A stretch of DNA of 35,497 nt from Raja brachyura (lineage: Eukaryota), in the NCBI GenBank assembly GCA_963514005.1, contig OY740782.1, forward strand, positions 77,128,001-77,163,497, in the 5' to 3' direction. Positions 25,986-26,562 of the stretch are shown here, piece by piece (within the stretch, counting starts at the first letter, position 1; each line of letters opens with the position of its first letter). Below the pieces are notes generated by a model. That model was not told the DNA's origin and did not search any database. It saw only the letters and a list, made by a program, of their open reading frames with translations. The position numbers and the translations under genes are program-made.

Positions 25986-26448
25986 CTGAACTAGAGCTGC
26001 TGGTCTTTTGCTTGGTGTTTTGGCGTGATTCTTTCATCCAAGGGAATATTTGTTTACTAATGGTGGTTTGTGAGGTAAGTGTGGGGTTTTTGCTTGTGCT
26101 GGATTGATTCGAGTTGTTGCTGGTATTTTGGGGTGGGGATACAGAAGGTGGGGGTGGGGGCGGGGGTGGTGGAGGTGGTGGTGGCTTCTGTTGCTCTGCA
26201 ATAACTGGGAGATGGCTCGTTTGGTTGGCACTGGTTCGCATGCAACTCTCGTTAATATCATTGGGTTTGTGATGAGGGACAGTGCTAGCAGGTGACTGCA
26301 GAGAGCAGGCAGGCCGGTGATAGTCATTTTCCACATGGGATGAAGGCGGATATTGCTGCTGATTGGCATTGTAGTTAAAACCATTTGCTCCTTGGTATGT
26401 GTAACCACCGAAAATTGCAGAGCTGTCGTAGTATGTTGCTTTTTGCAT
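25986..26448 (-). CDS. hoxa3: Homeobox protein Hox-A3, first coding exon
   Basis: [16 protein letters not shown]...YHRPACSLQ...[17 protein letters not shown]; donor TCAG|gtata at 25986/25985. Confidence 0.97.
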
Positions 26449-26562
26449 CTCGTTGTTTCCCAATATTTATTTCACAAACTGACAGGGTCTTGACACCCTT
26501 ATAGAATAACATTGGCACCCGGTGTCACGTGACTCTTCCTCCAATGGCCTCTTCGGATAGAC
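26449..26562 (-). promoter_or_regulatory. hoxa3 5' leader with E-box/CCAAT elements and probable splice acceptor
   Basis: Palindrome GTCACGTGAC 26524-26533, CCAAT boxes at 26511-26515 (minus) and 26541-26545 (plus), acceptor ttctaacactag|G at 26563/26562. Confidence 0.6.

What the first reader, a model, noticed from the sequence alone, without database searches (positions are those of the whole stretch)
26375..26512. 45-aa overlapping uORF in hoxa3 with apparent peptide-level conservation
Seen: ccaATGt (poor context) 64 nt upstream of the main ATG opens [45 protein letters not shown], overlapping the CDS out of frame. Its ATG overlaps a CCAAT box. Recalled human HOXA3 leader gives MCALTGVKPLSECAIKIVKQRDAK at the same spacing. 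Inference: an ancient inhibitory uORF or micropeptide sharing sequence with a promoter element.
Basis: partly seen in the sequence, partly recalled or inferred. Interest (0 to 1): 0.72.

Follow-up and report, generated by a model that had tools for sequence, protein, structure and literature searches.

The report
Ancient weak AUG in Hox3 leaders
The shark hoxa3 gene has a weak upstream start codon that is kept in bony fish, birds and mammals and in the sister genes hoxb3 and hoxd3; its human copy is already listed as translated, and it most likely dampens Hox3 protein output rather than making a useful peptide.

Summary
The ORF is real, on the minus strand (26512 to 26375) of a cartilaginous-fish HoxA cluster: 45 aa, AUG 64 nt before the hoxa3 start, weak context, inside CCAAT. 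The human ortholog is already catalogued as translated (GENCODE Ribo-seq uoORF c7riboseqorf27; 0 MS studies, PhyloCSF negative).

Peptide-level conservation is not supported. Shark and teleost leaders share 60 of 64 nt, synonymous sites included. Against bird HOXB3, changes fall evenly on the codon positions. Residue swaps look neutral (P=0.31; coding control P=0.001). Length runs from 45 to 137 aa.

The AUG itself is old. It is the only ATG in all five leader exons read as DNA, 19-20 nt behind an E-box, and it persists in two paralog loci where CCAAT is broken. It is out of frame in A3 and B3, but in frame in D3, where it is the annotated start in lobe-finned vertebrates.

Best reading: a dual-use element, promoter DNA plus a leaky translational brake on spliced transcripts. 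Repression is inferred, not shown, and I have no shark RNA data. The scan had not noted this element on other DNA.

The parts
26375..26512 (-). 45-aa upstream overlapping ORF (uoORF); 21 codons lie in the leader, the rest in an alternative frame of hoxa3
26510..26512 (-). conserved weak-context uATG (-64); the only ATG in the leader exon
   Evidence: counterparts in L002-L005, P0136-P0143 and Hox-D3 starts
26511..26515 (-). CCAAT box overlapping the uATG (NF-Y binding inferred from the motif, not tested)
   Evidence: broken at this place in L004 and L005
26524..26533 (-). palindromic E-box GTCACGTGAC; the only TCACGTGA in the window; matches the mouse site whose mutation lowers promoter activity
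   Evidence: CACGTG in 5 of 5 Hox3 leaders; PMC9456764 passages and primers
26541..26546 (-). inverted CCAAT (CATTGG) on the other side of the E-box; kept in teleost and mouse Hoxa3, absent at this place in the B3 and D3 loci
26563..26564 (-). predicted 3' splice acceptor AG after a pyrimidine tract; the leader exon starts at 26562 (114 nt before the main ATG), which puts the uATG inside spliced mRNAs
   Evidence: AG|GT at -102 to -121 in 5 of 5 Hox3 leaders; similarity of P0141, P0142 and P0143 to the window stops at 26560-26566
26480..26500 (-). hyperconserved block with two TGTCA motifs (TALE-type sites, label recalled); 15 nt identical in shark A3, teleost A3 and bird B3, third codon positions included
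25986..26448 (-). hoxa3 first coding exon (main ATG 26448, context AACGAG-ATG-C; donor GT at 25985)
   Evidence: 90% identical to Heterodontus and Callorhinchus Hox-A3
26606..26614 (-). conserved AAGATGGAT motif about 50 nt upstream of the acceptor (intronic or promoter; function not tested)
   Evidence: present in shark, L002, L003, L005; absent in L004

Best explanation
The 114-nt leader exon of hoxa3 does two jobs. As DNA it is a proximal promoter module (inverted CCAAT, E-box, CCAAT); this is shown for the mouse E-box only. As RNA, in transcripts spliced into the acceptor at 26562, it carries one weak-context AUG. Some scanning ribosomes start there (shown in human by the Ribo-seq catalogue; inferred for shark). 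They run past the hoxa3 start out of frame and so cannot re-initiate on it, which lowers Hoxa3 output by an amount set by start-codon stringency (inferred from the uoORF layout and from tested Hoxa1/a9/a11 uORFs). Transcripts that start downstream of the AUG would escape the brake (inferred). Selection keeps the AUG, its frame and the nucleotide sequence, not the peptide. The same AUG was inherited by HOXB3 (same frame) and HOXD3 (16 nt closer, in frame).
For: The human ortholog is catalogued as a translated uoORF, class 'conserved'. Met lies at -64 in 8 of 8 homologous frame translations. In DNA found by a pattern from the coding exon only, 4 of 4 Hox3 loci carry exactly one leader-exon ATG, at the homologous place (-64, -64, -67, -48). 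In L004 and L005 the overlapping CCAAT is broken and local identity to shark is 0.35 and 0.42, yet the ATG stays (rough chance 0.043 and 0.077, computed after the fact). The -67 case keeps the frame. Hox-D3 16-aa extensions are collinear with uORF codons 2-10 (shuffle P 5e-5 to 0.013 in 10 of 10). The acceptor is conserved in 5 of 5 leaders, and three mammalian translations leave the genomic sequence at the acceptor, as spliced mRNAs would. E-box mutation lowers mouse Hoxa3 promoter activity. There is no amino-acid signature.
Against: Hoxa3, Hoxb3 and Hoxd3 are not among the 13 Hox mRNAs with conserved uORFs in CAGE-defined somite leaders (PMC8892498), so the main somite transcript may not contain this AUG; their Table S1 was not readable. 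I found no reporter test of this AUG. The whole 64 nt is hyperconserved (60 of 64), so in A3 the ATG needs no separate explanation. The inverted CCAATG on the antisense strand is kept equally well in teleost and mouse A3 and cannot be a start codon. The 'ATG without CCAAT' argument rests on two loci that may come from one fish, and L004 has other CCAAT/ATTGG sites nearby. In L004 the AUG opens a 12-codon uORF that ends before the CDS, a different layout. I have no RNA evidence from a shark. In mouse an upstream strong AUG (AUG111) was reported as the main brake.
Confidence: 0.58

Rival explanations
1. By-product: the ATG is only CCAAT plus a favoured G inside a hyperconserved transcription-factor cluster. 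Translation from it is incidental leak with no selected effect.
For: Leader synonymous divergence is 0.14 against 0.59-0.69 in the CDS (shark vs teleost; Fisher P=0.003 on rounded counts). The mirror CATTGG is conserved too. ATTGG-N11-E-box-like modules also precede hoxa1 and hoxa2 in this window. CCAAT typically lies about 80 bp upstream of the start site (PMC3730095), which would put local starts past the uATG. The gene is absent from the CAGE-based list.
Against: The ATG persists where CCAAT is broken (L004, L005). No leader exon has lost the ATG or gained a second one (5 of 5). A3/B3 spacings of 64, 64 and 67 keep the frame. Translation is catalogued in human.
Confidence: 0.27
2. The 45-47-aa product is a functional micropeptide under amino-acid selection.
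For: 10-20 of 21 non-overlapping residues are identical across the 8 hits. Shark vs teleost gives pN 0.044 below pS 0.138. No internal stop or frameshift was seen in the non-overlapping part of A3 or B3.
Against: The pN<pS result rests on 2 vs 2 changes (P=0.23). Shark A3 vs bird B3 has 6/7/8 changes by codon position and pN 0.38 above pS 0.25. The 24 distinct substitutions have mean BLOSUM62 -0.46, as expected under neutral change (P=0.31), while the Hoxa3 N-terminus control is conservative (P=0.001). ORF length is 45, 47, 49, 65, 83, 95 or 137 aa. There are 0 MS studies, and PhyloCSF is -27.67 / -436.24 (this score includes the overlap and is biased negative). No Pfam match.
Confidence: 0.06
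3. The AUG was the ancestral start of a longer Hox3 isoform, as in lobe-finned HOXD3. The A3/B3 ORF is a relic thrown out of frame by a 16-nt insertion and kept passively.
For: 10 of 15 Hox-D3 hits carry the in-frame 16-aa extension, collinear with the uORF start. Hoxd3 is listed among genes with a conserved poor-context main AUG.
Against: The teleost D3 locus has a stop in that frame, and the 5 ray-finned D3 hits are annotated without the extension. A relic would not be expected to keep AUG and frame in two paralogs for this long. No outgroup was available to set the direction of the indel.
Confidence: 0.09

Closest known systems
Human HOXA3 uoORF c7riboseqorf27 (GENCODE Ribo-seq ORF catalogue; row seen in a supplementary table of PMC10032668)
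   Same: Direct ortholog: 21 codons then overlap, same frame, 47 aa; 12 of 21 and 13 of 24 residues identical to shark.
   Different: A catalogue row only; no study of it turned up in my searches. Conservation to cartilaginous fish and to HOXB3/HOXD3 is added here.
Conserved weak-context Hox uORFs of Hoxa1, Hoxa9, Hoxa11 and ten others (Ivanov et al. 2022, PMC8892498)
   Same: AUG in conserved poor context in a Hox leader, kept to fish; the same eIF1/eIF5 logic is expected.
   Different: The three tested are 7-21-codon uORFs; this one overlaps the CDS, which rules out re-initiation. Group-3 genes are not in their list of 13.
Mouse Hoxa3 TIE uORF from AUG111 (Alghoul et al. 2021, PMC8172242)
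   Same: An inhibitory uORF that runs through the whole Hoxa3 leader. A 1-nt deletion fuses it to the reporter ORF, which implies the same frame as the -64 AUG. P0142 and P0147 show such a spliced open frame, with the -64 Met as residue 50.
   Different: It starts at a strong-context AUG far upstream; the authors call its coding sequence not conserved. In shark the frame is closed by TGA in the E-box, so only the -64 AUG can open it. Their 9 kDa is smaller than the roughly 13 kDa I would expect if the mouse stop were as in P0142.
Hoxa E-box/CAAT promoter modules mistaken for IRESes (Akirtava et al. 2022, PMC9456764)
   Same: The same E-box; their mouse Hoxa3 mutagenesis primers flank it and contain both CCAATG copies.
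   Different: In the passages I read they do not discuss the Hoxa3 uAUG, and they did not test the CCAAT. The E-box-to-CCAAT gap is 10 nt in shark, 11 in teleost and bird, 14 in mouse.
Annotated 16-aa N-terminal extension of lobe-finned HOXD3
   Same: Starts at the paralogous AUG; codons 2-10 are collinear.
   Different: In frame (48 nt), so it yields a longer Hox protein instead of a competing ORF.

Membership tests
Ortholog of GENCODE uoORF c7riboseqorf27 | same start position, frame and homologous sequence in the HOXA3 leader | tested here: met
Ivanov-type conserved weak-context Hox uORF | uAUG lacking a purine at -3 and/or G at +4 | tested here: met
   C at -3 and T at +4 in shark, L002, L003 and the mouse primer; C at -3 in L004 and L005
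Ivanov-type conserved weak-context Hox uORF | present in at least 90% of placental mammals | tested here: inconclusive
   4 mammal-type translations, one mouse primer and the label 'conserved'; no whole-genome alignment available
Ivanov-type conserved weak-context Hox uORF | lies inside the CAGE-defined leader | not testable with these tools
   Hoxa3 is absent from their 13; Table S1 not readable; indirect support for spliced inclusion
Ivanov-type conserved weak-context Hox uORF | translated according to ribosome profiling | tested here: inconclusive
   listed for human in the Ribo-seq catalogue; no data for shark
Ivanov-type conserved weak-context Hox uORF | represses the main ORF and responds to eIF1/eIF5 | not testable with these tools
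   needs reporters
Conserved-peptide uORF / microprotein | purifying selection on amino acids (dN<dS, conservative substitutions) | tested here: not met
   (three DNA sequences and eight peptides; power is modest)
Conserved-peptide uORF / microprotein | conserved length and stop | tested here: not met
   45-137 aa
Conserved-peptide uORF / microprotein | peptide detected | not testable with these tools
   0 MS studies in the 2023 table; the 2026 tables were not seen
NF-Y/bHLH (CCAAT + E-box) promoter module | E-box needed for promoter activity | not testable with these tools
   reported for the mouse site (PMC9456764); not tested in shark
NF-Y/bHLH (CCAAT + E-box) promoter module | fixed E-box position about 11-12 bp upstream of CCAAT | tested here: inconclusive
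   gap of 10 nt (shark), 11 (L002, L003), 14 (mouse primers); reference value from PMC3730095
Hoxa3 TIE uORF (AUG111) | starts at a strong-context AUG far upstream in the leader | tested here: not met
   a different, weak AUG; the shark frame is closed upstream by TGA. A shared frame is inferred.

The most novel reading that the evidence does not exclude
One weak AUG older than the vertebrate Hox cluster duplications sits in all group-3 leaders and was rewired by a 16-nt indel. Relaxed start-codon stringency would lower HOXA3 and HOXB3 (out-of-frame overlap) while shifting tetrapod HOXD3 to a longer isoform. Because the AUG is written into the CCAAT box of a proximal promoter, promoter choice decides whether a transcript carries the brake. 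This would be a paralog-differential translational switch that helps explain how near-equivalent Hox3 proteins are dosed differently.
Probability: 0.3. Interest if true: 0.75.

Novelty: new member of a known kind. Interest (0 to 1): 0.48.

Why it matters
It adds paralog group 3 to the Hox genes with deeply conserved weak uAUGs, and gives an unstudied catalogue entry (c7riboseqorf27) an age at least that of jawed vertebrates. It ties together three separate strands: the Hoxa3 'IRES' that behaves as an E-box promoter, the mouse TIE uORF that probably runs in this same frame, and the annotated poor-context start of HOXD3. A one-base change (CCAATG to CCAATC) separates the DNA role from the RNA role, so the question can be tested directly. 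It is also a clean example of peptide likeness produced by nucleotide constraint.

Tried and rejected
Word-indexed protein search with the 45-mer: no candidate; the HMMER search of cluster representatives found 8. No genome is held for the window. Sequencing-run search: no RNA holder listed; no read or contig data were obtained, so exon inclusion and start sites in shark remain open. The coding-exon pattern gave 0 hits in viral contigs, 1 bacterial chance hit in genome contigs (L006) and 1 bacterial chance hit among 5 in metagenomes (L001); both were dropped from counts. RNA structure as the cause of conservation: the leader exon folds no better than shuffles (z=+0.74), predicted folds differ between loci, and Rfam gives only one chance-level match outside the leader (E=0.6). 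Pfam: nothing. Avoidance of alternative-frame stops in the first hoxa3 codons: 0 of 13 stop-making synonymous options are used before codon 24 in the four A3/B3 sequences, against 2 of 4 in D3 and 16-26% later in the exon; suggestive, but too few and not independent, so not used as evidence. Upstream non-coding exons could not be placed in the window by tblastn. The supplementary ORBL and peptide tables of PMC13275300 and the SI Appendix of PMC8892498 were not seen; both bear directly on start-codon constraint and on the start site. Earlier scan notes hold nothing on hoxa3.

Full report
Setting. The window holds hoxa1, hoxa2 and hoxa3 on the minus strand. The first coding exon of hoxa3 is 90% identical to Heterodontus and Callorhinchus Hox-A3 and at most 73% to the other listed hits, so this is a cartilaginous fish.

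Observation. 26512 to 26375 on the minus strand translates to the 45-aa peptide reported. The ATG is 64 nt before the main ATG (26448), out of frame, with C at -3 and T at +4, and overlaps CCAAT at 26515-26511. The ORF ends 74 nt into the CDS. Such an ORF alone is unremarkable: 41% of shuffled leader exons give an out-of-frame ORF that reaches the CDS.

Anatomy. From 5' to 3': a conserved AAGATGGAT (26614); a pyrimidine tract and AG acceptor (26564-26563); then a 114-nt leader exon with an inverted CCAAT (26546-26541), the palindromic E-box GTCACGTGAC (26533-26524), CCAAT/ATG, two TGTCA motifs and the main ATG. The uATG is the only ATG in this exon. Its frame is closed five codons upstream by the TGA in the E-box.

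Orthologs. A HMMER search of 1.84 billion cluster representatives returned 8 unnamed translations of this frame. All 8 have Met 21 codons before the overlap, with 10-20 of 21 residues identical. By compatibility with named Hox-A3 N-termini they are teleost-type (P0137, P0138, P0140), tetrapod-type (P0136) and mammal-type (P0139, P0141-P0143); these labels are inferred. The set is biased towards open frames, because gene callers produced it. P0141, P0142 and P0143 stop resembling the window at 26560-26566, the acceptor, while P0136, P0138 and P0146 continue into the intron. That is what spliced and unspliced copies would look like, and it is my only evidence, indirect, that the AUG lies in mRNA. 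Mouse primers in Dataset S2 of PMC9456764 contain both CCAATG copies around the E-box.

It is catalogued. Supplementary file 2 of PMC10032668 lists c7riboseqorf27: HOXA3, uoORF, 47 aa, 'conserved', 0 MS studies, PhyloCSF -27.67 (primates) and -436.24 (mammals). The table is the 7,264-ORF GENCODE Ribo-seq set. That the 'riboseqorf' prefix marks ORFs seen in more than one study is my recollection, not checked.

DNA from other vertebrates. A pattern built from the coding exon only gave 5 metagenome loci: one bacterial chance hit and four Hox3 genes. They are L002 (teleost Hoxa3a, 96% to Anabas), L003 (bird HOXB3, 94%), L004 (teleost-like Hoxd3) and L005 (a divergent Hoxb3). All four have the AG|GT acceptor at -102 to -121, the E-box, and exactly one leader-exon ATG, 20 nt behind the start of the E-box core (19 in shark), at -64, -64, -48 and -67. 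In A3 and B3 the ORF overlaps the CDS in the same frame (47, 83 and 95 aa). In L004 it is in frame and stops after 12 codons.

Peptide or nucleotide? Shark and L002 share 60 of 64 nt. Synonymous divergence in the uORF frame is 0.14 against 0.59-0.69 in the adjacent CDS (Fisher P=0.003), so the bases themselves are held. The 2 synonymous and 2 non-synonymous changes give pN<pS but no significance (P=0.23). Shark A3 against bird B3 has 6, 7 and 8 changes at codon positions 1, 2 and 3, and pN 0.38 vs pS 0.25; the CDS of the same pair has 7, 2 and 14. The 24 distinct residue swaps in codons 2-21 average BLOSUM62 -0.46, against -0.61 +/- 0.28 for matched neutral changes (P=0.31). The same test on the Hoxa3 N-terminus gives P=0.001. 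Length varies from 45 to 137 aa. The peptide likeness is therefore a by-product. The samples are small, so weak selection on a few residues is not excluded.

Is the AUG selected apart from CCAAT? For: in L004 (TCCATG) and L005 (CCAAATG) the overlapping CCAAT is broken and flanking identity to shark is 0.35 and 0.42, yet the ATG stays in place (rough chance 0.04 and 0.08, computed after seeing the data). The 3-nt shift in L005 keeps the frame. Against: these are two loci, perhaps from one animal; L004 has other CCAAT copies nearby; and the antisense CCAATG left of the E-box is as well kept in A3 without being a start codon.

The HOXD3 link. 10 of 15 Hox-D3 hits, all lobe-finned vertebrates, have 16 extra residues before MQK, mostly beginning MLFDKG, MLIDKG or MLFEQG. 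The 5 ray-finned hits are annotated without them. Codons 2-10 of the shark uORF are closer to these residues than to shuffles in 10 of 10 cases (P 5e-5 to 0.013). So the annotated HOXD3 start is the paralog of this uAUG, moved into frame by a 16-nt length difference. PMC8892498 lists Hoxd3 among genes with a conserved poor-context main AUG. The AUG thus predates the split of the A, B and D clusters; the direction of the indel is unknown without an outgroup.

Relation to published Hoxa3 work. PMC9456764 shows promoter activity of the mouse Hoxa3 leader and its loss on E-box mutation; PMC12048685 also sees promoter-like activity but reads it as an assay artefact. PMC8892498 does not list Hoxa3 among 13 Hox mRNAs with conserved uORFs in CAGE-defined leaders. 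This counts against the AUG being in the main somite transcript, but their Table S1 could not be read. PMC8172242 describes an inhibitory uORF from AUG111 that runs through the whole mouse leader and is fused to the reporter by deleting G333; that implies this same frame. P0142 has a Met 211 nt before the main ATG, which equals AUG123 if G333 is the last leader base; that length is my assumption, and their 9 kDa fits it only loosely. PMC11790910 saw higher Hoxa3 translation efficiency on eIF2D depletion but no significant effect in leader reporters.

Mechanism. Shown by sequence: one weak AUG, out of frame, overlapping the CDS, downstream of a conserved acceptor motif. Shown in the literature: translation in human (catalogue row) and E-box-dependent promoter activity in mouse. 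Inferred: partial capture of scanning ribosomes lowers Hoxa3 output on spliced transcripts in a stringency-dependent way, and transcripts starting below -64 escape. Confidence 0.58; by-product 0.27; relic in-frame start 0.09; micropeptide 0.06.

Novelty. The human ORF is catalogued and the class is known, so this is a new member of a known kind. I found no paper on this ORF, on its depth of conservation or on the B3/D3 equivalence (searches; the library lacks most subscription papers, including older Hox3 promoter work). PMC13275300 reports that most catalogue ORFs under constraint keep the ORF but not the amino acids, which fits; its value for this ORF was not seen.

What I read. PMC8892498: parts 1-3 of 9 and passages; supplement list only. 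PMC8172242: abstract, sections 3, 5, 7, 13 and passages; no figures. PMC9456764: passages, SI passages and two primer rows. PMC10032668: passages and two table rows. PMC13275300, PMC3730095, PMC11790910: passages. PMC12048685: passages and a supplement search with no sequence found. The labels NF-Y, TALE and PBX-HOX for motifs are recalled, not tested.

Noticed in passing
window 13364-13290 (-), hoxa1 leader: A 24-codon frame opens at ATT and ends at TGA 3 nt before the hoxa1 ATG. Behind the E-box the leader has no ATG except one at -7 (13293), which opens a 17-aa out-of-frame overlap. PMC8892498 reports a 21-codon Hoxa1 uORF kept from mammals to fish; this may be its shark form with a near-cognate start.
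   Followed up: partly
window 13428/13412 (hoxa1) and 19424/19408 (hoxa2), minus strand: ATTGG followed 11 nt later by CACGTG (hoxa1) or CATGTG (hoxa2): the same kind of CCAAT/E-box module as at hoxa3. The hoxa2 copy contains an ATG-TGA start-stop at 19407.
   Followed up: no
window 26614-26606 (-); L002, L003, L005: AAGATGGAT about 50 nt upstream of the acceptor is shared by A3 and B3 paralogs from shark to bird; it resembles a PBX-HOX or YY1 site (labels recalled).
   Followed up: partly
window 26495-26491 and 26484-26480 (-): Two TGTCA motifs inside the uORF; the first lies in a 15-nt block identical in shark A3, teleost A3 and bird B3. They are candidate TALE-factor sites and a likely cause of the apparent GVKTL conservation.
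   Followed up: partly
L004, 48 nt before the Hoxd3 ATG: In this teleost-like Hoxd3 the paralogous AUG opens a 12-codon uORF that ends 9 nt before the main ATG, a third outcome for the same AUG.
   Followed up: partly
P0142, P0147 (unnamed mammal-type translations): In these spliced forms the uORF frame is open for 49 codons upstream of the -64 Met, matching the arithmetic of the mouse TIE AUG123 and G333.
   Followed up: partly
L002-L005: Metagenome collections contain vertebrate Hox contigs (probably host DNA), which served here as comparative sequence.
   Followed up: yes
window 12455-12481: A run of 27 G just below the hoxa1 first-exon ORF.
   Followed up: no
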